DNA from: Ureaplasma parvum serovar 3 str. ATCC 27815
GTDB lineage: Bacteria; Bacillota_I; Bacilli_A; Mycoplasmatales; Mycoplasmoidaceae
Length of the DNA stretch: 32,000 bases
NCBI RefSeq assembly: GCF_000019345.1
Contig: NC_010503.1
Location: 570,001-602,000 of the forward strand
Direction: 5' to 3'
The notes under the pieces are model-generated. The model saw nothing but the letters and a program-made list of their open reading frames with translations, did no database searches and was not told the origin of the DNA. Shown in pieces: positions 1 through 32,000 of the stretch. The position numbers and the translations under genes are program-made. Numbering within the stretch: position 1 is the first letter of the stretch; each line of letters opens with the position of its first letter.

Positions 1-2858
1 ACGTTAGAAACTGCTGGTGCTTTTAAAACAAGCTTACGAGCTTGATCGACACCATCATTAATTGCACTAACATCTTTGTTAATACTATTTCTATCTAATA
101 TTGTTTTGTTTGGATATTCATTTAAATCTACAATCTTATCAAAATCATAGATTTTGTTAGGATCAAATAAATTATTGTTTGGATTAACAATAACTTTTCC
201 CTTATCATCAGTTTTGATTGGAACATGAATTTCATTGTTATTTTTATCTTTATAAACAGCAGTTAAATCTTTATTTTTTTGATCTGGTATTTTAAACTCA
301 TGCTTATTATCAGCATTAACATTACCATTTTTTTGTTTATTAACTATTCGATCTAATGGTGAAATTTCATCAATATTAGCAACTTTTTTATTATCAGCTT
401 CAATTTTTGTTAGTGTATATTTATGATCTGGTGCAAAAATTGCATCATCACTTGTTTTAAAAATAGCTTTTCCATCTAAACCAATACTAGCTTCAACCGT
501 TTTTGTATTAGTATTATTATCATCGGTTTTAAATGTTAATTTAATTTTTTTATTTGCTAAACTAGGATTTGAAAAACTAATTTCATAATCATCATTTTCT
601 TTAGTTTTAGCAGTTATTGTTGGTTTTTTAAATGAAATATGATTATCACCACTTAATTGCTCTTCACTAATTAGATCAATATTTGGTTGATTATTTTGTT
701 TTAAAACGACTTTTTTAAGTGTGTATATATTAGGTTTAGTTGGGTCATTATTTGCTAAATTTTTTGTTGGAATAATAACCTTGCCATTAGCATCAATACT
801 TACATCTATCTCATGTTCTATACCATCTTGATCAACAACAATTCCTTTGACATTTGCATTATTTAAAGCTTTTTGTTTTAAATCATCATTTAAATCATTT
901 GCTAATTGAGTGTGAATTTCTAAATTTCCATCATTATCGTACGTAAAATCTGGATGTGAATCTAATAAATTCAAATCTCGTTTATCAATTATTTTATCTT
1001 TTAGTTCAAAATCATTAAGATTAATGACTTTATTTAAATCGTTATTTTCAACTTTAGCTAAATGATAAATATATCCTTTTGGTAAATCATTACTATCAAA
1101 AATAATTTTATTATTTTGATCCACATTAGCAACTACTTTATATTCTTTATCATTATTATCAACAAAAGTTGCTACTAATTTCTGATTAATTAAATCATTA
1201 TTTAAATTTTCTAAAATTTGGGTTTTTTTAGTTGAATCAACACTTGCATTAGCAGCTGGCTTTTTAATTAATTGTTTTTGTTTTGAAGTTAAATCAAAAT
1301 TTGAAACCAAAACATTTTGTGGGTTTGAAACTGAAACAATTTTGTCTAGTGAATAATTACTGTTATTATTTAATGCACCTGTATCAAATGCTATGGTTCC
1401 ATCTTTTTTAACTTTTGCTAAAATTTGGTGTTCTTGATTATTTTGATCTTTAAAAATTCCATATACTTGTTGGTTAACATAATATGGCGCTACTTTAGCA
1501 ATTAAATTAATATCACCATTTTTTGTATATTGATATGGGGTATTTAATGCGTTTGAATTTAAATTATTAATTGATCGATTATGGTATGGAATCTGTTTAA
1601 GATTAACAACATCAACTTCATTAGTTTTTTTAATACCAATAACTTCATATAAATTATTATCACCTAAAGATGAAATATCAAAAACAGCTCGTCCTTTTTC
1701 ATCTGTTTTTGCATTAATTTTATATGTTTGATGATTTAGATCTTCTAAGGTAAGTTCAAGAGGAGTGTTTTTTAATTGAACACCTAAATCAACTTCATAT
1801 ACTTTTTTGTTATCAATAAAATTAACTTTAGCTTTTGTTGGTTTATTTACACTAACTTTATGTTCAAGCATTAATTCATTATTTGGCACTAAAACATCAT
1901 TTAATTCATTATTGTTAACAATTCGGTTTAATTCATATTTGTGATTTAAAGGTAGTTTTTTAGTATTAAAATACCCAACATTATTTTTTACACTCAACGC
2001 TGGTATTAAATATTCTTTATTATTTTCATCTTTAAAAACTGCTGTTGGCAAGGCTTGGTTTTTAGTTTTATTTGTTAAATCAACTTTTAAAACAAGATTA
2101 CCTTCATTATCATAAGTATGTGTTTTATCAATTTTTTTAAACTGTTCATCAATATCATTAACATTTACAACTTTTGTTAATGGATTTGAATCTTTTAAAA
2201 TTAGATCTTTTAAATAATAAACATTGCCATCTTTTAAACTACTTGTATCAATATCAATTTTTTGATCTAATCCAACATGTGCTTCAATACTATAAACTTC
2301 ATTATTTTGATTTACAAATTTTGCGACTAAAATTTTATTAGCAAGTATTTTATTTACCTTTAATTGAATGTGCTTTTCGTTTTTTTGATCCTCATATACA
2401 TTAGTTGGAACTGGTTTTAAAACTTCAATTTTCTGTTCAGGTTTTAGCTTCTCATTTTCACGAACAATGTTATTATTTAAATCAATAATTCGATTTAGCT
2501 TATATTTACCTGTTTTTGGTAAATACTTAGTATCAAATTCAAATTTTGCATAAGAATCAATTTGAGTTTTTATTTTATATTCTTGATTGTTTTCATCAAC
2601 AAAAACACCATAAACATCTTTGTTAATATAAGTTTTTGGTAATTGACCTTTAATGATTAAGTCACCATCATCATTAAAACTATAAAAATCATTATTACTT
2701 AATTCATTATTGTTTTTTGAATGTAAAACAATCCCAATAATTGCTCCTGCTCACGCTAAATTTAGCGTTGCAAGCAATAAGAAAAGACGTTGCTTACGAC
2801 TTTTTTTATTATTATCGTTTTTTATTGTTTGGATTTTTTTACTTTTTTTATTATTCAT
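1..2858 (-). CDS. Membrane-anchored modular repeat surface protein; N-terminal ~952 codons are in the window and the C-terminus lies beyond position 1
   Basis: Hand check of the frame found no in-frame TAA/TAG from 2858 down to 1 and a single TGA. The ATG at 2858-2856 has AAGGAAG just upstream. The N-terminus MNNKKSKKIQTIKNDNNKKSRKQRLFLLLATLNLAWAGAIIGIVL is a basic stretch plus one TM helix with no lipobox Cys. About ten ~90-100 aa modules follow, each with F.D.NN.EY.I and ending ..Y.L..I (GKYKLNRI, NVYYLKDL, HKYELNRI, NLYEVIGI, SNYSLDKI, YIYHLAKV, NIYTLKKV, HKYTLTKI, KIYDFDKI). It is absent from the ORF track because it runs off the window edge. Confidence 0.8.
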
Positions 2859-3084: not shown

Positions 3085-6000
3085 TTAGTTTACTTTAGGA
3101 ATTTTATGACCATTAATTTTAATACTCTTTAAAAATTGTGTAGAGATCTGATTTGAATCAAGATTTGAGCATATATCTTTTAAATCATTTAATCAATAAC
3201 AATTTTCATTAGTTAGTGTAATTTCAACACTTTTATTATTATTTTTATTAATTTTTGCAACTATTTTTGACTCTAAAGTATCCCCATCGCTATTGTTATA
3301 TACATAATTTAATTCAATATTACATTCTTTATCTTGGGATAAATTACTTAAAAATATATCTTGATCAAAAGTAATATTAATTTTTGGATCAGATCCATTA
3401 ACTTCATATTTAATATTATCTACTTTTCATTTTAAATTGGGATTTAAGATTCCAGGAAAATTAAAATAGCGTTGGTTATCTACTCAAGTTAAATCTAAAT
3501 TTTTATCATTCAATTGAATTGAATTAATTCGATATTTAATATCAGGCTTTAAATATTTTAATTCAAATTCAATTGTTTGGTGCTCATAGTCGATTTTTAA
3601 TTGGTTATGAGCATTTAAATCAATACATTCTTGTTGGTTGTTTTCATCTTCTAACACTAATGACATTTTATGGGCGTTTTTATCTTTAAAGATGAAATCG
3701 CTAAAATGCAACTTGAATTTAATGTTTTTTTGTTGTTGGTTAATTTCATGATCAATTTTATCTAAGTAAAATTGATCAAAGCCGTAATCTAAAGTTTTAA
3801 AAGTCTTATTATTGATATTTTTTAAATTAATCTGTTGCTTATCAATAAAAAGTTCACTAATTTCATAATCAGTATTAATGTTTAAGTTATCTAATTTAGT
3901 TGAGATTTGGTGTGTTTTTTTATCAAAATAAAAATCTGTTTTAAATAAATACAACAGCTTGTTTGTTTTTTTATTTTTTAAAATAACATCAACTCTTTTT
4001 GGCATATTTATAACTGCTTGGTTTAGTGTTAATTTTAAAGTACTATTTGTATTTTTAATATCATTAAATTCTAAATTTAATAATAAATGTGGAGATGATT
4101 CATTAAGTGTTTTAACTGTAATATTATTAGTTAAATAATTGTCATCATCTATTTCAAAAGAAATAAGTTTAAATGTTTGATTTTTATCTAAAGCAAAAAG
4201 ATGTAAAATAATGTTTTTTGTTGCATTAAGTTGAGTAGTTTCTGATTTTGATAAGTTTTTAACAAACTTATATTTATTATGATTTTCATCTTCTAAAGTA
4301 TATTTTATTTTATGCTCAATACTATCAGCATATTGATTGTCTTGTAAATCAACATTTAGATCGGTTGAAGTTGATTTTGTATTTGTGAATGAAAAAACAG
4401 CTTTTTTGAACTCATTTGTTTTAAATTTAAGAAATGAAAGATCCAAGTGAAATGGATGAGAATCAAAAAAATCTCCTATATAAACATTTACATTAAAATT
4501 ATCACTATGGTAATTACCATCAACATCTTCTAAGATAAAACTTACAAATTCATAATTAATATGATTATCTAAATTTAATAATTTAATTTTAATTGTTTTT
4601 TGATCTTCATCAATACTCATGAAGCAATTTTTATCTTCAAAACTAAACTCCTTATATGCTCATTCATTTGGATTATTTAATGGATGATATCTTAATTTAA
4701 TTTTGGGTTTTAAAGAATTTTCTTTTCTTAAAAGTAATTTTTCACATTTAATATTAATAATCGCACTATTTTTAGTAATATCCGAAATGAAAAGGTGTTC
4801 TTTATAATCTTTTTTTACTTCTTTTGATCTTTCATTATCATCTTTTTTAGAAACTGATAAATATCAAAACCAACTATTAAAAGCACTATAGTAAGAATTA
4901 TAGAATGATTTATCTTTAAAAATTTCAATACTTGATCGATCAGGACGTATTTTAAATGTTTTGTTAATAGGTCCATAATATCCACCTGCATAGTCATCAT
5001 CATTAGGGAAAGATACTGGTTTACCGTTTAGTAAAATATTATCAATTTCATAAGTTTTGTCAACATCTAAACCATTAATTACAGCAGTTAATAAACGTTC
5101 TTGTTCATCGTATTTAACTTCTGAGAATTCAATTGGGTTTTGATCATTTTCTTTTCTAATTAAAAATTTAAAATTATGAATATTAGGATTGTAGAAAGCA
5201 AGATCTTCAGATAATTTTACTTTAATTGTAACTGCTTTTGTAATTTTATCAACAGCTGTTTCATAATCAATAGCTTCAACTTTAGCATAATCGCCTTTTG
5301 TTGTAAAATCATGTGTTTGATTATTTAAATTTAAAACTTGATCATTAATCTTAATTTGTTTAATATCATAATGAGTTCCTCTTTCTAATTCATCAACATA
5401 AACAATAATTCTCTTGTTTAATTTATCAATAAAAAAATGCTTCTTATTAAGCTCTAATTGACCTTTTTTATAAACTCTATTATATGCTAAACTAATGTGG
5501 ATATTATTTAAAGCTTCATCACTATCATCTTTTATTTTTAACTCTTTAAAATTTAAAGTTAAATTAGCACCATTATCATTAATCTTTGTAATTTCTAGAT
5601 TTTTTAAAAGATTATCACTATCATCAAGGGTTTTAAAAGTGTGGTTTGGAATTGAAGTTAATTGAATTTTTTGATTATTAAAATTAAGTTTATCTAATAA
5701 ATATTCACAATCAGATGTTAAATTATAAACGGTAGCATCAATTTCATTTTTTTGCTTATTGAAAACAGCATCACTAGTAATGATTTGGTGATTAGTTTTT
5801 TTGATAATTTTTAAACTAAAATTATGAATAGCATCGTCTTTAAAAGAAACTGTTTTTAACTTAATCTTTATATCAACTTGGTTTTGTTTAATATTTGTAA
5901 ACGAAATATTATTAATTTCTAAATGATCAATCTTTGGTGTATTAGGAAGTGATGGTTGTAAATTTAAATCTTCATTAATATCTTGTTCGATAAAATTTAA

Positions 6001-6396
6001 ATTATGATCAAAAATTAAATGTAGTGCAGGAAATGCATCATTTGAAAAATTAGTGATAAAATGATCATTAATTTTTGGTTTACGAGCTAGTCTTAAATAA
6101 ATTTTGTTATTAATAATCAAAGGATGAATATTTTCTAAACGGTCAACTTTTTTATTTAACAATGGATTAAAAAGATTGGTGTTTAAAGTTAAATTCTTAT
6201 AAATACCTTGCGAAGTATTTAGTTCATTAACTTCATAAACAACATAATAATGGTCACTCTTGGTATGAATTATATCTTTCATTAAAACATTAACATTTAA
6301 CTTTGATTTATTGCTACAAGATGCAAGTGCTGTAGCAACAATAGGAACTAAAGCAGCTGTAAATAAAAATAATAACTTTTTCTTAATTAATTTCAT
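3085..6396 (-). CDS. Large modular surface lipoprotein, 1103 aa (paralog of 11592..14333)
   Basis: ORF-track pieces 4864..6396 and 3484..4620 are in the same frame and are joined by TGA codons. I found no in-frame TAA/TAG until the TAA at 3087-3085. The signal peptide MKLIKKKLLFLFTAALVPIVATALAS-C has lipobox LASC. AAGGA lies upstream of the ATG. Module-end signatures include CEYLLDKLNFNNQKIQL, THYDIKQIKINDQVLNL, KTYEIDNILLNGKPVSF, TDYEISELFIDKQQINL and IKYRINSIQLNDKNLDL. Confidence 0.85.
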
Positions 6397-7833: not shown

Positions 7834-9951
7834 TTATTCATGATAGTCAGCACTATGAATAATAGAAAAATACTTATCTAATGATTTGTTAAATTCAATA
7901 TTTTGATTATTTACTTTAACATCAACAAAATCATAAACAATTTGGTCCTCAATATTTTCAAATTTTGCTATTAAAGTTTTCTTATTTACATCATATTCCA
8001 AAGTTTTTGGGCTTATCAGATTAGTAGTGTATCCTGTTCGTTTTTTAATTGTAAATGTAAAATTATTAGATGAAGTGGGATTTGTGGGAATATTATCAAA
8101 TTTTAATTTGATTGTTGTTAATTTAGTTTCTTTATTATAAGATTTACTAATTTCATTTACATTAAATTTAGTTTTATAATCACTATTTTTAGTATCAAAA
8201 TCAAGCGGGATATTAAAAGGATGGTTATGATGATTTGTATTTTTTTTTAAAAATTCAGGTTTGTTTAATAATTGTTTATTTTTATAATCATTAATAACAA
8301 AGTCAATAACTTCATATGATTTATTTGATTCTAAATCATTAATTGTTACATTCAATATGTGGTTATGAACCAAACCCTCAACAGTATTATTAGTAGTATC
8401 AATACTATTAGATGATGGTTTTAGTCTATATTTGACACTAACTTTATCACCATCAACTAAATCAAAATCATCTTCTAAATGAAACTCTAATTTAGCGGAT
8501 TTATCGGTTGAACTATAAGAAATCTTTTTGATTTTAATTTTTGCTTGAGGTGTATTAAAACTACCATTTAATCCTTGAGTATTTACTTCTAAAGCTTGTT
8601 TTTCACTAAAATCTTGTAGATCATCAAAAACTAGTTTAGAAAAAGTGTATTTTCGGTTTGATAAAACTTTATCGAAACTAAATTCGTACTCTTTTTTTGT
8701 GGGATCAAATAAAACAGGTTTTGATACAATGATGTTATTTGCATTATCCATGTATACTAATTTTAAATATTTATTTTTTAAATAATTAACGTTATTTTCA
8801 AAATATAATTTAATCTTAACACTCAAATTTTCATCATTAAATCAAAAATCACTGCTTTCATGTTCTAAGTTCTCTAATCTTTGAACAGTAGTTAATTTTG
8901 TAGAGGTTAAAATATTTAAATCTAAATTAGCTAATGATATTGGCTGTCCATTAAGAGTTAATGAATTTAATGAGTATTTTGTACTAGTTTGTAAACCCGT
9001 TAAATTAAATGATAAGGTCTTTTTAGAGTTATTGTAAACATAATTTTCAAAACTAAAAGTATTTGATGGTTGGTGTGCTGAAACTAATTTTAAAACAAAT
9101 TTTTGATTATTTAAATCACCTAACTTATTATCTTTAAAATAAAAAATCAATTTTGCACTAGTATCATAAATTTCTTTTTCAATTTTGGTGATGTTTAAAT
9201 CTTTAATAATCGGGTTTGAGTTTTGCTTATTAGTATTAGATAATACTAAATTTTGGTTACTAAAAACTAACTCTTTATTATTTAAAACAATCCTATGAAT
9301 TTGGTATTTAGCGTTGTTTTCTAATTGAGTAAAATTAAATGTTATCGATGGCGAATTTGGTTGATAATTAAACTTAAATTTTGTAATTTGTTGGGTTTGT
9401 AAATTTAATAAACTAATCTCAAAAATATTTTGGTTTTCGTTCGCTAAAAAATATTTTGTAAATTCTAAATTTAAATCAGCACTATTATTAGTAATATTTT
9501 TTCAATCAATTTTTTTTATACTAAATTGATCTACATTTTCTTGTGTTAATGTACTTGTTATAAAATCTAGTTTAGTTATTAGCTGTTTTTGATTATTAAT
9601 TAATAAATCTACTAATTCATAACCCATATTTGGTTTTAATTCATTAATAATTAATTTATTAAGATCATTATCCTTAACTAATTTTAAATTATTAATTGTT
9701 TTTAAATCACCAGTTGCTTTTTCTTTTAAAACAACACTGTATGAATGTGATGCTAAAACTGCACTACCTTCTAAAAATAACTCAATACTATTAGTAGTTG
9801 TTTTAAATTTTTTTATTTTAAAAAGCACTTGTTTATCATCAACCTTACTTTTTGATTTAGTGCATGCACCAATTAAGCAAGATAAACCAATAATTAAAGT
9901 ACTACAAGTTAAAATTGTAATTATTTTAGTTAAATGTTTTTTAGTTATCAT
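7834..9951 (-). CDS. Modular surface lipoprotein, 705 aa
   Basis: ORF-track pieces 9502..9951, 8842..9150 and 7834..8826 share one frame. The gaps contain only TGA codons and no TAA/TAG (hand checked). The true stop is TAA at 7836-7834. The signal peptide MITKKHLTKIITILTCSTLIIGLSCLIGA-C has lipobox IGAC. AAGGA lies upstream. There are six modules of ~105-110 aa, ending MGYELVDLLINNQKQL, TKYSLNSLTLNGQPISL, RKYTFSKLVFDD, KSYEVIDFVINDYKNK and IVYDFVDVKVNNQNIEF. Confidence 0.85.
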
Positions 9952-10135: not shown

Positions 10136-11440
10136 TTAATTTTCATCAATAATATCATTTTCATCGATTTTAATATTAACAGCAACTAAAGTATGATCTG
10201 AGATAATAGAAGTAGCTTTTTTAATGTATACATCATTTGATTTTGCTATTTCATCCCAATTATCAACAATATTTTGCATTTGTTGATTACTTAAAGAACG
10301 AAAATAGGTTTTTAAAAAAGCTAATTTTCAGTTTTTATCTAATAATGTATTTGTTAAAGAAACTGATCATAAATCATACTTATAAGTATTTAAAACTTTA
10401 ATTGATGGTGAAGTAAAAATTTTGTCATAGTGTTGTGCGTATTTTAAATAAGTTTTTGCTAATGTAGTTTTGTTATTTTCATTATCATCCTTAAAATTGG
10501 ATAAATAATTACGTTTATAAAGTGAAGCAAAGGCTCCTAATTCGTTTTTTGTTTTAATATTAGTATCACCAACAAAAATTAAATCATCATTATTTCCATC
10601 TAATCTATCAATATAGTCCATCACATTTCCTAATTGATATGCCTCATTTAATTCCTTTGAGCCTTGTTTAATATTAATTTTTAAATTTTTATTACCATAA
10701 GTATGATCATGTTTGCTAGTTTTATGTTCGTTTGCTCCTGGTGAATCTAAATGACTAGCGACAATTGTAAAATTAAATTTGTTATCTAAAGTTTGAAATT
10801 CATAGGCATAAGGCGGACGTGAATAAGTAATTTTAGTATTATCATTCCAGTTCTTAAAATATTGTTCAAACAAAATATCTTTATTATCATTGTTTTTGTA
10901 AATATATTCTTGAACTGGTTTTATTATATTAGCTTTATAAAAGAAGCCAATTCGTTCAGTTTGTGATTCATTGCCTTTTGAAAATAAGTTTTTTGATAGC
11001 ACATAATTTCAATTAGCTGTTTGATCAAATTGATTTTTGTGTAAATTTAATTCTTTTAAGATGGCACGCATTGGTAAATCATCGTGTTCATTATTTTTTG
11101 CACTATTAATTTCTGTTAAAGCAATTACATCAACATTACTTTTTAGAATCACCTTTGCTAAAGCTTCATTTTTTAACTGGTTTATTCCACCTTGATTTAA
11201 AACATTTCAATGACCTACACAAATTGTTTTTTGGTTTAAAAATGATCTTGTTGAGTTAGGTTGTTCTTTTAAAGAATTATTATTATTTTGAATTATATAA
11301 CTATCATTATTTACACTTGTATCATTCTTTTTTTTATTTTTTAAATAAAAAACAACGCCAATAACTGCACTTGCTATTAAAATGATTAACAACGTTAACG
11401 AAATAGTAATTACTCATTTCCGGCTTTTATTATTCTTCAT
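10136..11440 (-). CDS. Membrane-anchored endonuclease/exonuclease/phosphatase (EEP) family nuclease, MnuA-like, 434 aa
   Basis: Pieces 11207..11392 and 10367..11002 are in the same frame and joined across TGA. The ATG at 11440 has AAGGA upstream, and the stop is TAA at 10138-10136. The N-terminus MKNNKSRKWVITISLTLLIILIASAVIGVVFY is a TM anchor with no lipobox Cys. EEP motifs appear in the correct order: GHWNVLN, DVIALTEI, ASHLDSPG, FVGDTN, YDKIF and SDHTLVAV near the C-terminus. Confidence 0.8.
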
Positions 11441-11591
11441 AAATTTCCTTAATTTTGTTCATAGTTATTAAATTTTAAACAATAATTTAATCCTTTTTTA
11501 ATCTTTTAAACAAGGCAAAGCAAATGAATAATATAGAATTCATTTATTTATTTATTTATAAAAAATAAGTTTTTTTAAAAAAATTTTATCG

Positions 11592-20533: not shown

Positions 20534-21955
20534 ATGAGATATAAATTTAAAACACAAGAAGACTTAGTAAATCATTTAAAATCTGTTGGTTTTGTTTTTG
20601 CAAATTCAGAAATATATAATGGATTAGCTAACGCATGAGATTATGGACCATTAGGTGTATTATTAAAAAATAATTTAAAAAATTTGTGGTGGAAGGAATT
20701 TGTTACTAAACAAAAAAACATTGTAGGTTTAGATAGTGCCATCATTTTAAACCCCTTAGTATGAAAAGCAAGTGGACATTTAGATAATTTTTCAGACCCA
20801 TTAATTGATTGTAAAAGTTGTAAAACAAGATATCGTGCTGACAAATTGATTGAATCTTTTAATAAAGATATTCATATTGCTGAAAATTCTACTAATGAAG
20901 AATTTATGAAAGTTTTAAATGATCATAAGATCTTCTGTCCTACATGCAAACAATTTAATTGAACTGATATTCGTCATTTTAACCTTATGTTTAAAACACA
21001 CCAAGGAGTAATTGAAGATCCTAAAAACATCGTTTATTTAAGACCAGAAACCGCTCAAGGTATTTTTGTTAACTTTAAAAATGTTCAGCGATCAATGCGT
21101 TTACACTTACCATTTGGGATTGCACAAATAGGTAAATCATTTAGAAATGAAATAACTCCTGGTAATTTTATTTTTAGAACTCGTGAATTTGAACAAATGG
21201 AAATTGAATTTTTCTTAAAAGAAGAAATTGCATATGATGTTTTTGATAAATATTTAAACCAAATTCAAAATTGATTAGTTACTTGTTGCGGATTAGATTT
21301 GAATAATTTAAGAAAACATGAACATCCCAAAGAAGAATTATCACACTATTCAAAAAAAACAATTGATTTTGAATATAATTTCTTACATGGTTTTTCTGAA
21401 TTATATGGAATTGCATACCGAACTAATTATGATTTATCTGTGCATATGAATTTATCAAAAAAAGATTTAACATATTTTGATGAAGAAACTAAGCAAAAAT
21501 ATATTCCTCATGTTATTGAACCATCAGTTGGTGTAGAAAGATTATTGTATGCTATTTTAACTGAGGCTACATTTATTGAAAAACTAGCAAATGATGAAGA
21601 CCGAATTTTAATGAATTTAAAATATGATCTAGCCCCTTATAAAATTGCTGTAATGCCATTAGTTAATAAATTAAAAGAAAAAGCAGAAGCAGTTTATAAT
21701 AAAATTTTGGATTTAAATATTTCAGTAACTTTTGATAATAGCGGAAGTATAGGCAAACGCTATCGCCGTCAAGATGCTATAGGAACAATTTATTGTATAA
21801 CAATTGATTATGATTCATTTGGTGATGAACACGATCCTACTTTTACTATTCGTGAACGAAACACAATGGCTCAAAAAAGAATTAAATTATCAGAGTTATC
21901 TTTATATTTAAGCCAAAAAGCTCATGAAGATTTTCAAAAGCAATGTCAAAAATAA
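20534..21955 (+). CDS. glyQS: Glycine--tRNA ligase (class II, single-chain GlyQS type), 473 aa
   Basis: From the ATG at 20534 the read runs through five TGA codons and joins pieces 20987..21274 and 21299..21955. Motifs present: [62 protein letters not shown], and the anticodon-binding domain [12 protein letters not shown]. Confidence 0.95.
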
Positions 21956-23868
21956 CTAACAATGTTTTTTTAACAATTCGTAATGCTATAAATATTTCCG
22001 ATGTTATTCAAAATTACATTAAAGTAATTAAAAAGGGTAATAATTATTGAGCTATTTGTCCATTTCACAATGATACAAATGAATCATTGTCAATCAATGA
22101 TAAAAAACAAATCTTTAAATGTTTTGCTTGTAATCATGCTGGTGATGTGATTAAATTTGTTGCTGAATATAAAAAGATCTCCTATGCTTTAGCAGCACAA
22201 GAGATTGTTCAATTAATGAATTTAGATTTAAACTTATTGAATCATTTACAAAAAATTTCTCCACAAGAAATTAAAAAAAATAAGGTTTTTGATTTAAACA
22301 AACAAATTCAAAAATGATTTATTAATTTTTTAAATAATAAAAATAACATTCATGTTATTGATTATTTAACTAAACGAAATTTAAATAAAAATGATTTAGC
22401 ATATTTTAAAATCGGTTATGCTCCAAATAATGATGAATTATTAAATTTAATAAAATCTAATTATAATAATCTGATACAAGAAAATGACGAGTTTGAATTA
22501 AATAAATTAATAGAAAATTCCTTTTTAGTAATTGATAAGAATGGTAATTACCATGATTTTTTTAATGATCGTATTATTTTTAGTATTTATGATCATCTCA
22601 ATAACGTTGTTGGTTTTAGCGGACGTATAATTACAAATGAGAAAACACCAAAATATTTAAATACTAAAACCACTGCTGTATTTAAAAAAGATGAAGTTCT
22701 TTATAATTTTCATAATGTTATCACCATTGAAAATAATCATCAATTATTTATAGTTGAAGGTTTTATGGATGTTATTACAATTCATAAATCTAACAAACCA
22801 AACGTTGTAGCAACAATGGGTGTTGAATTAACTAATAAACATTTAGAATTAATTAAAAGCTATGGAATTAAAGATTTAATTTTATGTTTTGATAACGATC
22901 AAGCAGGTTTTTTAGCTACTAAAAAACAAATTATGAAATTAATTAATTCCCCATTCAACATTTTTATTGTTAATCATAAAGATAATGATTGCAAAGACAT
23001 GGATGAATATGCAAATAAGCACGGTTATAGTGCAACAAGTAAGCTATTAGACCAACAACTTCATATTAGTGAATTTTTATTATTAGAAATTAGTAATACA
23101 AACAAATCTACCCCCTCACTAAAACACAGTTATAAACAAGAGTGTTTTACAATCATTAAAAAATATGGTGATATTTTTTATGTAGATAAATATGTTGATT
23201 TCATGAAACAAACATTTTCAATTGAAGAAAATTTATTAAAAAAAGTTATTGAAGAATTATTAATTAACAAACAATGTAATTCTATTCAAAACAAAAAGAA
23301 CATTCAATCATATCAAAAACAAACACAACTAACTAATAAACTTACTACTTCAAACCCAAAAGTTATCCTAACAAAAATTGATAAACATTTTAACCACTTA
23401 GTAGTAATTATATTAATGAATCGGGTTTTCTTAAACCGTCTTGATACGCAAGTTCGTAACCGGTTAACTAAAGAGCAAAGTTTAGTGATTAATATTATAG
23501 AAGACTTTTATTTGTACCATTTTAAGATTAATAATATTTTAAAAAACACTGATTCTTTTATTGAATTTATTAATAAAAACTACAGTAAATATACTAATGT
23601 TATTAACCAACTTACAAAAATGGTGCAGATTATTAAATATAACCCTAAGTTTGATAATATAGTGGCATTTGAACTAGCTAAAAATAATTTTATATATGAA
23701 TGATTAAACAACCAAATTAAACGTTTAAAACTCATCAATCTAAATTTAAATATGAATAATAACCAAGAACAAATCATAAATAATGAAAAATTAATAAAGC
23801 AATATAATGATGAAAAAATTTTATTAGACAATTTAATCAATGCTTCTTTATTTCATAAAAATCAATAA
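21943..23868 (+). CDS. dnaG: DNA primase DnaG, 641 aa
   Basis: The ATG at 21943 overlaps glyQS by 13 nt. A CHC2 zinc finger is present ([28 protein letters not shown]). The RNA-polymerase core reads [25 protein letters not shown], and the TOPRIM block reads EGFMDV...CFDNDQAG. Pieces 22087..22317 and 22765..23703 are joined across TGA codons. The true stop is TAA at 23866-23868. Confidence 0.93.
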
Positions 23869-23875
23869 TGAATAC

Positions 23876-23919
23876 AAAAAAGCTTTTTAGTAATGTTTGT
23901 TTACTAGAAAGCTTTTTTT
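23876..23919. terminator. Bidirectional intrinsic terminator between convergent dnaG and the giant surface-protein gene
   Basis: An 18-bp stem AAAAAAGCTTTTTAGTAA / TTACTAGAAAGCTTTTTT (23876..23893 with 23901..23918) has one T-G position and a 7-nt loop. It is flanked by an A run upstream and a T run downstream, so it reads as hairpin plus U tract on both strands. Confidence 0.75.
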
Positions 23920-23946: not shown

Positions 23947-26900
23947 TTAAAATTGGTTTTCGTTATTTGTATCCATAGCATCATTATTCGTTGTACCAAA
24001 ACTATCAGTGTAGTGTTTGTGTTGATCATCAATTTTAAAGATTGATGCTTTTGGTTCTCCTGAATAATATGTAGCGTTTGAACTATTTGGAAGATTTGGA
24101 TTAATTCGTGGTTCATATCACACTTTACCAATATCAATTGTATTTTTTAAACTATCTGAATTTCTTCGAAGGTAATTTGCTAATGTACAACTGCTTGATA
24201 ACACGTTAGCACTTGTTGGTCGTGAAGCTCTTTCAAAATCTGTTAGTAATGAAGTATCTTCACCTTCATTAATACCATCAATATCATAGCCTTTAAAAGC
24301 TAAATTATTTGTATTATGTTGATAAATTCGAGCATAAACACCAAGTGATTTAGCTAATCCTAAATCAAAGATTGTTTTACGATAACCACCAAAACCTGTA
24401 AATGGTCCTTTAAGGGATAAAGCAACTTGATATCTTCAAGTAAAGTTATTTCTTCCATGACCAAATTTTCATACTTTTCAATCGACTGATTTGGTACTAA
24501 ATGCATTTTTTAAACTATAGCCCATATCTTTAGCTGAAATTGTATTTGATGCTTGATAGTGTAAGACTTTAACTATATTATAATTTTGGTTTGGAATTAA
24601 TTGAATATTTTTAAATTCTAAACAATTATTATGTGCAACAATTGAAACAATCACGTAATCTTTTTTAATATCATAGTTTAGATGATTATCAATCTTATTT
24701 TCATAATCACGTGTATTAAATGGATCATCTCATGTTGATAAAACTACATTATAAGTTTGTCCTTCAACAAAAGTATTTGCTTCTTTACCTTTTAATTTAA
24801 AATTAACCACTGATGCTGGGTAACCACCAGAATCACCTTTTGTAAAGACAATATCGTTTTTAACAACTGTAGTTTGATCAAATTCAATTTGAGCCCCTAC
24901 GGTTTTAATGTGATATTTTGATGAATTATAATTATTAGTTGTGTAAATAATTTGATTATCAGCATTATTTATTGATCCAATAATTCTATTAATACCTTTA
25001 TTAACAAATGAAATACTTTTAATATAATAATCTTGATTAAAATTTAAATTGTTAAAATCTGCATTGAAATATCAAAATGGGTCATTATTATTTTTCTTAA
25101 ATAATTTACATGCTCCAGTACTAAAACTAGCTTCATTATCAGGTTGATCTTTTCGTTTGTATTCAATATTTATAGAAAAATCACCATTTAAAATTTGGTT
25201 TAAAACTGTACTATCATTTTTTCCAACTAATTTAAATTGTTTTGAAATTCCATCTTTAAATTGCGCAAGATTTTGCACTTCATTAACATCAATATGAATA
25301 CCTGTTTTAATAGTTTTTGTTATGCGATTATCAATATTAATTATTTTGAGATTATCGATCATATAAATTTGCTTTTCAATCTCATTTTTATTTGGATGAG
25401 TTTGCTTTTCATTATAATAAACACCTAAAAATTGATATTCACTATTTTCTTCTAAAGCCCCATTATTAGGTAAATCAAATTCTAATTTTGAATAATTATT
25501 AGTATTTAATTGAATTGGTTTAGATCAAACTTCTGCATTTGTTTTAGTGTTAGTAAATAAAGCAAACATGTATTTATTATAAAGATGTTCATCTTTATTG
25601 TTAAATGTCACAGTTGATTTTAGTGTTAGATTTTTATTATCTAATTTATTTTTCACACTTTTTACTTCATAAGGATTTTGGTTTTCTTCAATTTTAATAC
25701 TTGAGTATTGACTATTGTCTAATTCAAAAGTTACTTTATCCTTATACATTTTTGTTTGTGGATTTTCATACATTAATTTATTTAAATCCTTATGGGATAG
25801 TGTCTTAGGTTCATAAACTAAATCAATGCTAATAAGTTGATATAAATTACCTGGTTTAAAATGATCATCATTATTATCAATATTAAATTCAATGATTTTT
25901 TTCTTGTTATCAACTTCACCAACTAATGGAGGGTTCAAAGGTATTTGTTTTCTTTTATTTGGCAGTAAAATTTTTTCTATACCTATTCTTTGCCCCATAA
26001 ATAAACTGTCATCTGGATCGTCATATCGAATTTGAAATGTCATTTTTTTATGATTTTTATTATAAACAATCTTAGGGGTTGCAACATATCATTTAATTGT
26101 TGTTGCGTCAGTACTAAATGATAGTGCATTACTATTTACATTTTTGAATGCTTCACTATCAGTATCTTTAGATATTAGTTTTTTATGGTGTTTATCTTGA
26201 GAAAAACTAGGATCTGCTCATTCAATTCCTAATATTTTATATTCACGATTACCCTTAAAATATTCATTATGATCTTTAATGATTTGAACTAAATAGTCTT
26301 TTTGACCCGCTTTAAAATTTATTGGTTCAGAATAGATTAGTTGTTTATCATTAGATTCTCAATTATTATTCTTTTCATCCCACACATCACTTTTTCTTTT
26401 TGAAGATTCGTAAATTAATCTGAATGGTTTACCAATATAAGTTCCATCATGCTGTAATTTTAAATCAAAACTTATACCATCATTAGTTTGATCTTTTTTA
26501 ACTAAACTAATAATTTTTGGTTCAACAGTTTTAGTTTTGAATGAAATATTAGGTTGTGTCTTATCATTAGTATTTTCATAAATTACATTGTTATTAGCTT
26601 TTGAATTTAAATTAGCATAGGCCTTAGTTGGTTTTTGCTCAAATCACATTTTAGTAATTTTATATTTAATATTAGGCTCTAAATTATTTAAAGATAAAAG
26701 TACAATTGCACTATTAGAATTTCCATTTAATGTGTATGTACGTTCAAATACTGGAATATTTTCTGCTGGAATATCTTTTTTATTAATATCTTCATTAAAT
26801 GGTGTAATTTGAATATGTAATACTTGTTTATCAAATACTTGATCTTTTGATTCTAATTGAAATCAAACTGTTGCAGCATCAGTTGTAGCTGGTGTTTTAA

Positions 26901-29900
26901 TATTTTGAATTCGTACACCATCGGTTGGCACTAATAAATTTGCTGGGTATAAACTTAGTAAATATGTAGCATTACCTTGTTCAAAATCACTTTGTTGATT
27001 TCCAAAATATAAACCATTTAAATTATAATAACGATTTGTAGTTAAATTATCAATCTCAGCTTGATAAAGAATTTGATTATTATCATTAGTTGTTATTAAA
27101 CGGGGTTTAGTTCATTTTGTTTCCCCATTATTATCAACATATGCTGCACTAATTCATTTATTAGCTAATAATTTTGGAGCTTGTGTAATTGTAATATCAA
27201 CCTTACCTTTATTATTAACAACATCACCTGTTTTTGATGGACGTTCCTTAGTTGACAAATCATTATTTTCTAATAGAATTTTAAATTTATATTGATTATC
27301 ATCATTTGTTGAATTTTGATAAATAGATGAATAGTTGTTTTTATCATTATTATTGATGTTTTCACCCATTCTAGCTGGTTTTGTTAACAACATTAGTTCA
27401 CAAACTTTATAATCTTGATTTAGATCAATTCCACTAATATGAAATTTAACTATTTTTTTATTTTCTTTAATTTCAACATGTGCACTAGCTGAAACGCTTT
27501 GTTTTAGATTATTTAACATTGCGTATTTAATACTAAATTGATCTTGATTAGTTAATATATTACTTGGATCATTCAACTCAAAACATAAGTCTAAAGCCCC
27601 TAATGCTTTTTTAACTTTATTTCCATTTTCATTAACTTCTTGTGTTAATAGTGAATAATTAGTTGGAGTTTGCATTTGATTAATACTAATACGTTGAGCA
27701 TTTGGTGTTTTAATATTTCCTTTAGCAGTTTTTTCTAATGCTAATCATGTTCATTTACTATCATCAGTGGCTTTATTATCATCCCCATATCCAATACGTA
27801 ATGTATAAGATGAATTTCATAATAAATCACTACCAAAATCTTTTTTTCAATTTAAATTATTAAGATCTAATGAAGATATTGGAATAGTGTAATAAAGTGG
27901 TTTAGTATTTGGATCACTATTATTTAATTTTCACTCAAAACGAATATATTGACTTTTACTAAATACACTTAAATCCCCATTTAGTTTAAGATCAATTGTA
28001 GCGTTTGGAGTATTATTTACAAAATTAATCGTTGCAGTTTCAACATAAGCACTTTTCATTGTTTTAAACACTATTTGATCAGAATCAACATTTAAATTAT
28101 CAACTGCTGTTACCTTGTTAAATTTCTTCAATTCTTCTTCATTAAATATTAATTTAGCATCTTTTAGTTCATATTGCATATCTTCAGTTAAGTTATCAAA
28201 AACAATTTCATCTAAAACAATTTCATTATTTACTATTTTAGTTTTTAGTTTTTTAGTAATTCATGAATTAGATGATTGATTATTTTTTACTCCAAAACGT
28301 AATTCAAGCTCATAATTTAAATTTTTTAAAACACTATCTTGGTCTTCAAGTTTTAGATTTAGTTTTGCATGATGTGCTTTGATTTCACTAACATTTACTT
28401 GCTTAATTTTTAAAGGTTTACTTGCACGAACTGTAAATTGATCTAAATCATCTGTTTTCTTTGTTAGATAACCCTTTTCTAATTTATATTTTTTAAAATC
28501 AGTATTATCACTCACATTATTTTTTGCTAAACCCACTCATTTAATTGTATATTGCATTCCCCATGTTAAATTATTAAGGTCAAAAGTAAAGTATTTAACA
28601 GCATTATTATCTTGATTTTTATCTGTATCTTTATGTGATTTTGTATAATTAAACTCTTCGTTTTTATTATTTACTAATAATAAACGTAAATACCCTTGTT
28701 TAATAAATTCAGAATAATCACCATCTAAAGTTAATTTTAGGGTATAACTGTTTTCTTGAGCTTTTTTGTTAATCTCAATTTTATTAATAAACAAGTGTTT
28801 TATAGTTGCAAAATGAACATTGTTAATTTCAAAATGAGGTTTTGAAGAAATATAAGTTTCTTTTTGACTTCAATTTTCTTGATTTAAACTAACCGTTTTT
28901 AGTTCATATTCTGTATTTTCACTTAATCCGCTAAGATCTACATCATTTAAAATTACTTCATTATTTTGAATTTCTTTAACGCTAACATGTATGTTTTTTT
29001 GTTTTGGAGTAGTTGGATTTATTTTTGTATTAAACACAAGATCTAATTCATCGCCAACTTTAAAAATATGGTCAGGATCATTAAGTGTTAATTTTAATTT
29101 TGCTGTGTTATCACTAAGATTACTAATCTTATCATTTGCATTAATATAACTTATAGTATTGATTGCATTTGTTAGTACTTTTATTTGTGGTGGATTTAAA
29201 TTTGTGATATTATTAGCAACAAAAACTTCTTTGTTTTGATCATCAACACAATAAACACCAACATAACTATATATGTGATTTTTAGCTAAATTTGTAAATG
29301 TAAAATCTAAATCGTCATGAATATTTTCGTCGATTTTAATTTTAGTTGAAGATCAAACTAATTCGTTAGTATCATTACGTTTATATTTTAATGCTAAATA
29401 TTTACCTTTAAAAGCACTCTTCATGTTATTTTGCATTTTAACATGAACTGTCGTATTACTATCAGTTGGAGTTGAAGGGTGTGCAACATTAATACTATTA
29501 ACTTTAAATATGTTTCCTACAAGATAATTTTGATTTTTAATATCTTTATTATAAATAAAATTATCATAACCGTGATTTGTCTTGTGAATATCAAATTTCG
29601 CTTTTGCTGGTTTTTTATTAACTGATACAGCCCCAACTTCAAATTCTTGGTTATTTAAACTACCAACACTTAATCAAACTTCAGTGTATCATTTATTTTC
29701 TTGTTGGTCAAAATGAATAGGTCAATCATGAGATACTCATACATTGTTTGTATTTGGATAAACTAACTTAACATTAACATTATCATTATCATTAAAGATT
29801 TGATCTTGATTTAAGTCATTAAAATAAATTCTAAATTTAACATCGTTTTGTGTTCTTTTTGAATCATCTTCAACAATTTTTGCAATACTAATTGGTGTAG

Positions 29901-32000
29901 GTTCAACATTAAATTGGTCAACAAGATTATTCTTATTTAATTCACACCATTGGTTATGTTCATTTAAATATAAAATTTTATCTAAATGATATTCACGGTT
30001 ACCAATAATTGAATTTGAAGCGTTTTTATCAAAACTAAACACATAATCATGTGTATTTGTGCTAACTAATAATGGTTGAGTTTCAAAGGTTTCGTTATTA
30101 TTTTGTGATTGATAAACTAATTTTAGTTTTTTAGCATTTAAATATGGATCAATTTTATTAAATTTAGCGTTAACTTTAATTTCTTCTTTATTTGATGCGT
30201 AAGTATTTTTTATAGTTTTAATACTATTAATTTCAAAAATAGGTGTACTTGTTGTAAAAATAATTGAATGTGTTTGATCATTTGAATAAAACTGATCATT
30301 ATATTTGTTATTAATATGTTTATAAGCATTATTTGGTTGTTGTTTAAATTCAACACTAACTAATATATATTTAGTATTTGGTTCTAAATTATTTAACGTA
30401 AAGCTAAGTTTTGTTTGGTTATTTACATTCGCAACAACACCATTAGCTACAAAAGTCTTAGTTAAATCATCACCTTTAGCAAAATGACCTATAATTTGTG
30501 AATTTGGTTTAAAAATATCACCATCATTTGTACTTATAGAACAATTAATATCAGCTGATGTTGAAGTAATATTTTTAACTTCATGTGAACTAATTGTTGT
30601 TGCTGATGGATTTATAACTATTTTTTTATTTGTAATTGATGAATTAATTGGAATTTGATTTGTGTTTGTGCATGCAAAATCATTATTTTGGTCTGAGAAA
30701 TAAATAGCTTGGATTTCATAAGCCTTATTAGCAATTAATTTGTCATGACCAATCTCCACACTAGCTTTATTATTAGTAATTTTAAAAGCACTACTAAATT
30801 GGTCATCTTGTTTAAACTTATGACCACTTACACTATATTTAACACGAATGTACTTATTGTTTAATAAATTAGAACTTAATTCAATCGGTCAACTAATCTT
30901 GGTGTTTTGATCATAATCAAGATCTTGTTTATTAATTGTAACTTTATTAACTTCACAATCTAAAGCAATTTTTTGATTTATATCTTGATTATTAGTACTT
31001 AAAAGAGCTAAAGGATGTTGGGTATCATTAATTTTAGCAAATGCGGCATGAATTGGTTTATTAGCAAAACTAATTTCAAAAATACCATAATCTTGATTTA
31101 AAGTTAAATTATCAATATCAAATTCACAATAGAATTGTTTATTTTGTTGATCATATTTAATTGTAATATTGTTAATTAAATTAGCATTTTGCGTTTGATT
31201 AAATAAAGCATATTTAACATTTAATAATTCTTTTGAGCAATCAGTTGAATTTAAAATACCATCAGGATCATTAATTATATATTTAACATGTGCACTAACA
31301 GATTGATTATCTTGAACTTTTGTAATTGTAATTGTTGGTTTTTGCACATCCATTTTATTTGGCGCTAACCCTAAAGCTAATGATAGATGATTTTCATTTA
31401 AATCTTTTTTAATTTCATTGTTTGCACCCTTGTTTTTAATTGCACAAATTTCACTCAACTCATATTGATGATTAGGTGTAATTTGTGATTTTAACAATTC
31501 AAATTCATAAACTTGATTTGAATTTGAATTAATGTTATTAGAGCTTTTAATTTCAATAGCTGGTTTGTTAGGATTTGTTTTATCTACAAATTTAGCATAA
31601 ATTTCATATCCTTCAAGTTCATGGCCTTCTTTATGTAAACCAACACTAAATTTAACATTTTCGTCTTTTGCACATTCATAAACTCCATTTACTAATTTAG
31701 AGTTTGATGCTAATTTAAAATCTTTAATGAAATTATGAGCAACCTTAGTTGTTAAATCTAGTTTTTCTAATTGTTTTTTAGTAGTTTCATTATATTGAAT
31801 TGGTGATGTTTTTACATTAGGTGAATGAACATGTGTTGTGCTAATAGCACCAATTTCATAAGTTGTATTTGGTGTTAAATCCTTTAATGTAACATTAATT
31901 TTATGATTTTTAACACTAACTTCACCAGCTTTTGAACTTGTTCAAGCTTGTTCACCTTTTTTGCGATATGTAATTGTAATTTGGTCATTATCAACTAAAT
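23947..32000 (-). CDS. Giant modular surface protein, C-terminal >=2683 aa in the window (N-terminus beyond 32000); a module array plus a ~470 aa non-repeat C-terminal domain with a GDSGG motif
   Basis: Eight ORF-track pieces (25072, 25525, 27154, 27931, 28261, 28537, 29737, 30889) share one frame. I checked every line from 23941 to 32000 in that frame and found only TGA codons, with the first TAA at 23949-23947. Module-end signatures run throughout: HQYELSEICAIKNKG, QDYGIFEISFANKP, KAYEIQAIYFSDQNN, TKYILVSVEFKQQP, REYHLDKILYLNEHN, TEYELKTVSLNQEN, MQYTIKWVGLAKNN, MQYELKDAKLIFNE, QDYKVCELMLLTKP, IKYKITKMWFEQKP, REYKILGIEWADPS, NLYQLISIDLVYEP, SEYQFLGVYYNEKQ. The last ~470 aa (about 23947..25362) lack the module pattern. 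Confidence 0.85.

What the first reader, a model, noticed from the sequence alone, without database searches (positions are those of the whole stretch)
23947..32000. Giant (>2680 aa, still incomplete) single ORF hidden behind eight ORF-track fragments
In the frame shared by all eight fragments there is no TAA/TAG anywhere between 32000 and 23950, only TGA. This is therefore one gene of more than 8 kb whose start lies outside the window. The body is a chain of roughly twenty diverged ~100-110 aa modules (my estimate from signature spacing). Each module ends in an aromatic-aliphatic beta-strand-like signature, ..Y.(L/I)..(I/L/V).(L/I/F). The modules are too diverged at DNA level to be recent duplications, which argues for a long, selectively maintained stalk or fibril rather than a size-variable antigen. 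A standard-code pipeline would miss it or call it a pseudogene string.
Basis: seen in the sequence. Interest (0 to 1): 0.7.

Follow-up and report, generated by a model that had tools for sequence, protein, structure and literature searches.

The report
Giant Ureaplasma surface-fibril gene, already annotated
The eight ORF fragments are one real gene of Ureaplasma parvum, which reads TGA as tryptophan; it encodes the last 2,683 residues of a ~5,800-residue protein built from fibronectin-type-III-like domains, a gene already in public genome records but never studied experimentally as far as I could find.

Summary
Window 23947-31998 (minus strand) is a single frame of 2,684 codons with 29 TGA, 3 TGG and no TAA or TAG (chance about 1e-93). 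TGA means Trp here: all four TGA codons in the neighbouring glyS align to Trp in a solved GlyRS.

[quoted passage not shown] Public gene calls already give this gene as one product: 5,005 aa in AF222894.1 and 5,783-5,803 aa in other assemblies, with DUF1410 hits. It is therefore not hidden or new.

What I added:
- There are about 21 modules spaced 126±9 aa, not 100-110 aa.
- The modules alternate between two classes, forming ~250-aa two-module units, and carry the trace of an old 10-module duplication.
- An AlphaFold model of one unit (pLDDT 88) is two beta-sandwiches, best matched by tandem FN3 pairs.
- The last ~340 aa are a different region with no detectable relatives except in one other giant.
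- Only six related clusters exist among 1.84 billion representatives, all mollicute-type and mostly giants with an N-terminal membrane anchor.

Most likely it is a membrane-anchored extracellular fibril, possibly an adhesin. The function is inferred, not shown.

The parts
23947..31998 (-). C-terminal 2,683 codons plus the TAA stop (23947-23949) of one giant code-4 gene. The start codon lies about 9.4 kb beyond the window end, because the full product is 5,803 aa in other assemblies.
   Evidence: Open frame with 29 TGA and no TAA/TAG. 100% identical to AF222894.1. Called as one gene of 5,005-5,803 aa in public assemblies.
24970..31998 (-). Array of about 20 FN3-like modules (aa 1-2343; the first is cut by the window end). 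Spacing is 126±9 aa. Two module classes alternate, forming two-module units of ~250 aa.
   Evidence: Module HMM and leave-one-out test. Even-versus-odd lag permutation p<5e-5. In-register tiling by a two-module profile.
29899..30711 (-). The two-module unit that was modelled (aa 430-700): two seven-stranded beta-sandwiches.
   Evidence: AlphaFold2 with a 36-row alignment gave pLDDT 87.9 and pTM 0.79. Foldseek against PDB found 61 hits at E<=1e-3; the listed top 50 are almost all tandem FN3 pairs (NCAM 2vkx E 1.2e-5, sDscam 7y6e, PTPRD 6x3a, neogenin, cytokine receptors).
29212..31404 (-). Modules 2-7 (aa 199-929), the older copy of a 10-module block duplication. They pair with modules 12-17.
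   Evidence: Best partners lie at lag 10 (2-12, 3-13, 4-14, 5-15, 7-17). Lag-10 excess has permutation p=0.0016.
25378..27708 (-). Modules 12-17 (aa 1431-2207), the second copy of the block duplication.
23950..24969 (-). C-terminal ~340 aa (aa 2344-2683), not recognised as a module of this kind. It is an orphan region shared only with the 7,969-aa relative P0002. If the protein is anchored at its N-terminus, this is the distal tip.
   Evidence: Leave-one-out profile fails here. 31% identity over 340 aa to the P0002 C-terminus; blastp E 4.6e-16. No Pfam, PDB or NCBIfam match. The AlphaFold model is unusable, pLDDT 34.
23876..23918 (.). An 18-bp hairpin flanked by an A-run and a T-run, lying between the convergent dnaG and giant genes. 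It is a terminator-like site that could serve both genes.
   Evidence: One site found, against 0.0 expected in shuffles.
26221..26223 (-). Codon 1926 (GAA, Glu). It is TAA in sample SRR23994389, where the gene is called as 1,950 aa plus 689 aa.
3..2858 (-). Paralogue: the N-terminal 952 aa of a second gene of the same kind, made of a basic stretch, a TM helix and nine canonical DUF1410 repeats. It runs off the window start. It serves as a model for the unseen N-terminus of the target gene.
   Evidence: Pfam DUF1410 E 4.4e-95 with nine stretches. Hydrophobic segment at aa 27-45, KD 2.2.
7834..9951 (-). Paralogue: a 705-aa predicted lipoprotein (lipobox ..IGAC) carrying six copies of the same module.
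   Evidence: Module HMM E 8.6e-18. Pfam DUF1410 32.4 bits.
3085..6396 (-). Paralogue: a 1,103-aa predicted lipoprotein (lipobox ..LASC) carrying about eight weaker copies of the module.
   Evidence: Module HMM E 2.5e-7. Pfam DUF1410 28.2 bits.

Best explanation
This is the distal 46% of one intact protein-coding gene of Ureaplasma parvum serovar 3, translated with TGA as Trp. The full product is about 5,800 aa, which is 2.3% of the 752-kb genome.

Shown here:
- It is one reading frame.
- It contains about 20 FN3-like beta-sandwich modules arranged as alternating two-module units.
- It ends in a ~340-aa orphan region.
- The same architecture occurs in a handful of other mollicute giants.

Inferred:
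- The protein is held in the cell membrane by an N-terminal basic-plus-TM signal anchor followed by canonical DUF1410 repeats, as in its in-window paralogue and its relatives.
- The FN3-like array forms a long extracellular stalk. At about 3.5 nm per FN3 domain (textbook value), the window part alone would span roughly 70 nm and the whole protein well over 100 nm.
- The C-terminal orphan region is presented at the tip.

Most likely role: a surface fibril that mediates contact with host cells or mucosal surfaces, that is, an adhesin. The adhesin step is the weakest; I put it at about 0.35.
For: One gene and code 4. Identity with AF222894.1 and existing single-gene calls of 5,005-5,803 aa. Gene intact over aa 480-2684 in five other samples, with indels that are small and in-frame overall. 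Modules and two-module units. FN3-like fold: plus near-threshold Pfam hits to fn3 (22.9 bits, cutoff 25) and Pur_ac_phosph_N (29.9 bits, cutoff 30).

Extracellular location:
- The same module occurs in two lipobox-bearing proteins of the window.
- The relatives P0002, P0004, P0006 and P0008 and the paralogue ORF 3-2858 all start with a basic stretch and a TM helix.
- The fragment itself has no hydrophobic segment.
- Non-synonymous change is elevated, as is typical of exposed proteins.

Canonical DUF1410 repeats must lie in the unseen N-terminal part. The full product carries strong DUF1410 hits on record, while the window part reaches only 20 bits.

Tip domain: the C-terminal region is conserved with P0002, while the M. 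canis, P0004 and P0006 group shares a different C-terminal domain. That fits a common stalk with exchangeable ends.

Ureaplasma adhesins are stated to be unidentified in Paralanov et al. 2012 (PMC3511179).
Against: - The N-terminus of this protein was never seen, so the anchor is inferred from a paralogue and from relatives at 25-29% identity.
- I found no expression, localisation or binding data in the open literature.
- The C-terminal fold could not be predicted, so nothing points to a ligand.
- pN/pS is about 0.5. Among near-identical strains there are 16 non-synonymous differences (summed over three strain comparisons, some shared between strains) and no synonymous ones.
- One sample has a premature stop at codon 1926 and another has a 2,252-aa call. 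The distal half is therefore dispensable at least sometimes.
- AF222894.1 annotates 5,005 aa rather than 5,803 aa, and I could not explain the difference.
Confidence: 0.75

Rival explanations
1. It is a surface coat, spacer or immune decoy rather than a specific adhesin. A dense layer of long FN3-like fibrils would keep antibodies, complement or phagocyte membranes away from the wall-less cell, and the orphan C-terminus would have no specific ligand.
For: Several paralogues with the same module are clustered in the window. Non-synonymous change is elevated and truncating alleles are tolerated. No recognisable binding domain was found.
Against: The C-terminal 340 aa are conserved at 31% identity with a relative whose modules are only 25-29% identical. 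That argues the end is under its own constraint. In L006 the last ~460 aa carry no amino-acid change.
Confidence: 0.2
2. It is a decaying gene, a pseudogene in the making, whose long open frame is a remnant.
For: A nonsense allele in L007. A shortened call in L006. pN/pS of about 0.5 and a 16:0 ratio of non-synonymous to synonymous differences among close strains.
Against: In a 24% GC genome a random frame meets TAA or TAG every ~13 codons, yet 2,684 codons are open here (5,803 in full-length calls). Five other samples are intact over aa 480-2684, and their indels are in-frame overall. pN/pS is below 1. The modules fold confidently. The architecture is conserved in distant relatives.
Confidence: 0.03
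3. It is a size- or phase-variable antigen of the multiple-banded-antigen type, varying by gain and loss of repeat units.
For: It is a repetitive, presumably surface-exposed protein in a genus known for MBA size variation (PMC3637154, listed).
Against: There are no DNA-level tandem repeats beyond 29-32-nt chance-size arrays, and no homopolymer of 8 or more. Modules average 15% identity. Strains differ by 18-20 aa of small loop indels, not by whole modules.
Confidence: 0.02

Closest known systems
Pfam PF07198 (DUF1410) proteins of mollicutes, e.g. Mycoplasmopsis canis 'DUF1410 domain-containing protein' WP_004796560.1 / WP_223212159.1 (3,631-3,911 aa)
   Same: Same overall plan in the relatives: an N-terminal basic stretch plus TM helix, a block of ~95-aa canonical DUF1410 repeats, then a long run of ~250-aa two-module units that align in register with the window protein. 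The full-length U. parvum product carries DUF1410 hits on record.
   Different: Only 25-29% identity. The M. canis group has a different C-terminal domain. The window part itself is below the DUF1410 threshold (20.2 versus 25.5 bits). The link between the 126-aa modules and canonical DUF1410 repeats is weak (hhalign E 1e-3 for one class and none for the other). The family has no known function.
Tandem fibronectin type III domains (Pfam PF00041; e.g. NCAM FN3 1-2, PDB 2vkx)
   Same: The predicted fold of each module is a seven-stranded beta-sandwich. The conserved L..N..Y.(I/L/V) signature lies on the long sixth strand (F strand by FN3 convention), like the FN3 tyrosine-corner motif. Foldseek probability is 1.0.
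   Different: Sequence similarity is below the Pfam cutoff (22.9 versus 25 bits, one module only). Modules are ~126 aa rather than ~90 aa. The profile finds no PDB chain by sequence (best E 0.67). Whole-pair TM-scores are low (0.3-0.4) because the inter-domain geometry differs.
Giant repeat adhesins of walled bacteria: SiiE of Salmonella and LapA/MpIBP-type RTX adhesins (from my own knowledge), and Ebh of S. aureus (Clarke et al. 2002, cited in PMC11573180)
   Same: A protein of thousands of residues made of tens of Ig-like or FN3-like domains, forming a stalk that presents a terminal region away from the cell. This is what the window protein most plausibly works like.
   Different: There are no RTX repeats and no LPxTG motif. 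Mollicutes have neither an outer membrane nor a cell wall, so anchoring must be by a membrane helix. There is no sequence relationship.
Ureaplasma multiple banded antigen (MBA)
   Same: A repetitive surface protein of the same organism.
   Different: MBA is a lipoprotein with near-identical tandem units that change in number (PMC3637154 abstract). Here the repeats are ancient (15% identity) and their number is stable between strains.

Membership tests
Mollicute code-4 protein-coding gene | TGA codons in conserved genes of the same DNA align to Trp in homologues | tested here: met
   All four glyS TGA codons align to Trp in PDB 8u2q. TGA outnumbers TGG 70 to 13, and all 13 genes stop at TAA.
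Pfam PF07198 DUF1410 | Whole-protein score at or above the gathering threshold of 25.5 bits, for the window part only | tested here: not met
   20.2 bits, E 7.9e-4, three weak stretches.
Pfam PF07198 DUF1410 | Full-length product hits the family | tested here: met
   Precomputed hits (E<=1e-5 class) are recorded on the 5,803- and 5,783-aa products in L001-L004. The hit must lie in the N-terminal part outside the window. I did not see that sequence myself.
Pfam PF00041 fn3 | Sequence score at or above the gathering threshold of 25 bits | tested here: not met
   22.9 bits, E 1e-4, at aa 8-50 only.
FN3 / Ig-like beta-sandwich fold | Seven-stranded sandwich that superposes on solved FN3 domains | tested here: met
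   Model pLDDT 87.9, with seven or eight strands per domain. Foldseek found 61 PDB hits at E<=1e-3; the listed top 50 are almost all tandem FN3 pairs. This is a prediction, not a solved structure.
N-terminally membrane-anchored surface protein | N-terminal signal anchor or signal peptide | not testable with these tools
   The N-terminus lies about 9.4 kb outside the window and could not be fetched. The paralogue ORF 3-2858 and the relatives have such an anchor.
RTX / T1SS giant adhesins | GGxGxD nonapeptide repeats near the C-terminus | tested here: not met
   No GGxGxD motif in the 2,683 aa.
Sortase-anchored giant adhesins | C-terminal LPxTG followed by a hydrophobic tail | tested here: not met
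   No LPxTG. The highest 19-aa hydropathy in the fragment is 0.83.
MBA-type size-variable antigen | Near-identical tandem DNA repeats whose number varies between strains | tested here: not met
   TRF finds only 29-32-nt arrays. Strain differences are small loop indels.

The most novel reading that the evidence does not exclude
This protein, perhaps together with its DUF1410 paralogues, is the long-sought cytadhesin of human ureaplasmas. It would be a membrane-anchored FN3-like fibril more than 100 nm long, whose orphan C-terminal ~340 aa bind the sialylated or sulphated host receptors reported for Ureaplasma. The family would be a mollicute-specific class of giant adhesins with exchangeable tip domains.
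Probability: 0.2. Interest if true: 0.65.

Novelty: already known. Interest (0 to 1): 0.3.

Why it matters
As a discovery it does not matter much. The gene is in a reference genome, public gene calls give it as one product, and it belongs to a named Pfam family of unknown function.

It does matter as a lead. A minimal 752-kb genome spends 2.3% of its DNA on this one gene, and the same window holds at least three paralogues. The adhesins of Ureaplasma, a common agent of chorioamnionitis and preterm birth, are still unidentified (PMC3511179). I found no paper on this protein.

The analysis gives concrete handles for experiments:
- an FN3-like two-module stalk unit that models confidently;
- a conserved orphan C-terminal region to express and test for binding;
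- natural truncation alleles to compare.

Tried and rejected
1. Reaching the N-terminus. All of these failed:
- a homology search with the whole fragment;
- two genome-contig scans, the second using 35 aa from just outside the window taken from L007;
- one metagenome scan;
- an exact look-up of six possible table-11 fragment products;
The organism's own full-length protein never appears in the search tools, although look-up of encoding contigs lists it as a called gene.

2. Fold of the C-terminal region. The AlphaFold run with a 5-row alignment gave pLDDT 33.9, which is unusable. Pfam at E<=10, a PDB profile search and NCBIfam all found nothing.

4. Size-variable antigen, RTX adhesin and sortase substrate were each rejected on absent defining features.

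5. Pseudogene was rejected on open-frame statistics and on intactness across strains.

6. A simple four-type (A-B-C-D) super-repeat that I suspected by eye was not what the lag analysis showed. The signal is a two-class alternation plus a lag-10 block.

7. Literature searches for DUF1410, for Ureaplasma proteomes and for giant proteins found nothing specific to this protein.
Full report
**Observation**

The window is 23.7% G+C. With only TAA and TAG as stops, the minus strand from 31998 down to 23947 is one open frame of 2,684 codons. It runs off the window end and contains 29 TGA, 3 TGG and no TAA or TAG. From the base composition, 7.6% of random codons would be TAA or TAG, so the probability of such a stretch is about 1e-93. 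The eight table-11 ORFs of at least 80 aa in the region all share this frame.

The code-4 reading is confirmed independently. In the adjacent glyS gene the four TGA codons (aa 35, 77, 143, 247) align to Trp in the solved glycyl-tRNA synthetase 8u2q. Over 13 genes of the window, TGA outnumbers TGG 70 to 13, and every gene ends in TAA.

**Source and prior annotation**

The RecO protein of the window occurs exactly in Ureaplasma parvum genomes. The window is 100% identical over 20.7 kb to AF222894.1, serovar 3 ATCC 700970.

In those public records the gene next to dnaG is already called as one product: 5,803 aa in three metagenome assemblies, 5,783 aa in CP021990.1 and 5,005 aa in AF222894.1, with Pfam DUF1410 hits. 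The finding is therefore real but not hidden. The window holds the C-terminal 46% of an annotated gene that takes 2.3% of the genome. I could not determine why AF222894.1 has 5,005 aa rather than 5,803 aa.

**Anatomy of the protein**

- *Statistical support.* A profile built from the other modules recognises 17 of 19 full modules far above shuffled controls. The exceptions are aa 1953-2072 and aa 2344-2492.
- *Age of the repeats.* Modules average 15% identity. DNA self-matches are limited to 41-76 nt at 71-80% identity.
- *Two classes.* Similarity between modules depends on their distance. Even lags score higher than odd lags (permutation p<5e-5). Lag 10 is the strongest, with modules 2-7 pairing with 12-17 (p=0.0016). 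There are therefore two alternating module classes and the trace of a 10-module block duplication.
- *Two-module unit.* A two-module profile tiles the protein in register nine times. It does the same 22 times in the relative P0002. The two classes are related to each other (hhalign probability 89%, E 2.5e-6).

**Fold**

I modelled one two-module unit (aa 430-700, a TGA-free stretch) with an alignment of 36 in-register units from the window and its relatives. The model has pLDDT 87.9 and pTM 0.79, and shows two all-beta domains of seven to eight strands.

Foldseek against the PDB returns 61 hits at E<=1e-3. The listed top 50 are almost all tandem FN3 pairs: NCAM 2vkx, sDscam 7y6e, PTPRD 6x3a, neogenin and cytokine receptors.

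By sequence alone the link is sub-threshold: fn3 22.9 bits against a cutoff of 25, and Pur_ac_phosph_N 29.9 against 30. The best PDB profile hit is a tenascin FN3 at E 0.67.

**C-terminal region**

The last ~340 aa are not recognised as a module of this kind. They are 31% identical over their whole length to the C-terminus of P0002. They match nothing in Pfam, PDB or NCBIfam. AlphaFold with the shallow alignment available failed, with pLDDT 34. The M. canis, P0004 and P0006 group shares a different C-terminal domain.

**Relatives**

An exhaustive HMMER scan of 1.84 billion cluster representatives with aa 371-753 found only six proteins. Five are giants of 2,279-7,969 aa at 25-29% identity:
- Mycoplasmopsis canis 'DUF1410 domain-containing protein';
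- a 'Candidatus Tyloplasma litorale' MAG protein;
- three unnamed Logan assemblies.

Those with a complete N-terminus start with a basic stretch and a hydrophobic helix. In P0002, P0004, P0006 and the M. canis proteins this is followed by ~95-aa repeats of the canonical DUF1410 type (14 strong Pfam stretches in the M. canis protein P0008) and then by the two-module units.

The window itself contains the N-terminus of a second gene of this kind, ORF 3-2858 (minus strand): a TM helix plus nine DUF1410 repeats, E 4e-95. It also contains two lipobox proteins carrying the 126-aa module.

The target's full product has strong DUF1410 hits on record, but its window part scores only 20 bits. The canonical repeats must therefore lie in the unseen N-terminal 3,120 aa.

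**Variation between strains**

- Over aa 480-2684, five other samples have no stop codon. Their indels are small and in-frame overall, at aa 1736-1745 and about aa 2214-2226, with L003 having two further small ones. The 60 nt missing in L003 equal the 20-aa difference between 5,803 and 5,783.
- pN/pS is 0.45-0.53, against 0.03-0.16 for glyS and dnaG.
- The three nearly identical strains carry 16 non-synonymous differences (summed over the three comparisons, some shared between strains) and no synonymous ones.
- There is no tandem DNA repeat and no homopolymer that would drive size or phase variation.
- One sample (L007, 96.8% identical) has GAA to TAA at codon 1926, which splits the gene call into 1,950 and 689 aa.
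- L006 has a 2,252-aa call, implying a break near aa 432 that I could not inspect.

**Interpretation**

Shown: one intact gene read with code 4; an FN3-like two-module array; an orphan C-terminal region; a narrow mollicute family of giants.

Inferred: an N-terminal membrane anchor, extracellular display, a stalk-and-tip arrangement, and a role in host contact. The same module in lipoproteins, the anchors of the relatives and the paralogue, and the elevated protein-level change all fit an exposed protein.

The adhesin role is plausible because ureaplasma adhesins are unidentified (PMC3511179), but nothing here tests it. A coat or shield role is the main rival. Pseudogene and MBA-like variable antigen are rejected.

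**Novelty and score**

The gene and its family are already in public records. I found no paper on this protein. What is added here is descriptive: the fold, the two-class unit, the block duplication, the orphan tip and the truncation alleles. Interest is modest at 0.3. If the adhesin reading proved true it would deserve about 0.65.

Noticed in passing
window 3-2858 (-): A second gene of the giant DUF1410 type. Its N-terminus (basic stretch, TM helix, nine canonical DUF1410 repeats, Pfam E 4.4e-95) lies in the window, and the frame runs off the window start. U. parvum therefore has at least two such genes within 32 kb.
   Followed up: partly
window 11592-14333 (-), compared with L001 and L006: This 913-aa lipobox protein has no Pfam hit. 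It is interrupted by single nonsense SNPs in other samples: window 12140 C>A in L001 (called as 731 + 171 aa) and 14237 C>A in L006 (848 aa). Together with the TAA in the giant gene of L007, this suggests that surface-protein genes here are sporadically knocked out by point mutations.
   Followed up: partly
window 11542-11560: An (ATTT)n microsatellite in the intergenic region between the lipoprotein gene and the start of the nuclease-like gene 10136-11440 (-). It differs by one unit (4 nt; a 5-nt gap as aligned in L006) between strains. It might change promoter spacing.
   Followed up: no
window 10136-11440 (-): A 434-aa protein with an N-terminal TM helix and an Exo_endo_phos domain, scoring 24.5 bits, exactly at the Pfam cutoff. 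It is a candidate membrane-bound nuclease or phosphatase sitting among the surface-protein genes.
   Followed up: no
window 21943-23868 (dnaG) compared with its flanks, in L001-L006: Divergence is mosaic. dnaG differs from L001, L002, L004 and L006 at pS 0.07 while the neighbouring giant gene is almost identical in L001, L002 and L004. The reverse holds for L003. This looks like recombination tracts between U. parvum lineages.
   Followed up: no
giant gene, L001, L002 and L004 versus the window (aa 500-2684): 16 non-synonymous differences (summed over the three comparisons, some shared between strains) and no synonymous ones, where about 19% synonymous would be expected by site count. This could reflect diversifying selection or relaxed constraint, but the numbers are small.
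   Followed up: partly
outside the window (upstream of 32000); L005: AF222894.1 annotates the product as 5,005 aa, while nearly identical assemblies give 5,803 aa. The 798-aa difference (start choice, frameshift or sequencing error) is unexplained.
   Followed up: no
L006 (SRR13622618), upstream of locus position 20717: The gene is called as only 2,252 aa although the contig continues for ~15 kb. This implies a break near window aa 432 that lies just outside the fetched DNA.
   Followed up: no
window 23876-23918: An 18-bp hairpin with an A-run on one side and a T-run on the other, between the convergent dnaG and giant genes. It is a likely bidirectional terminator (one found, 0.0 expected in shuffles).
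   Followed up: partly
search tools: The organism's own 5,803-aa protein, and P0002 in the word-based search, never appear among search hits although they are in the collection. Very long proteins, or this cluster, seem not to be returned, so 'no homologue' results for giant proteins should be read with care.
   Followed up: no
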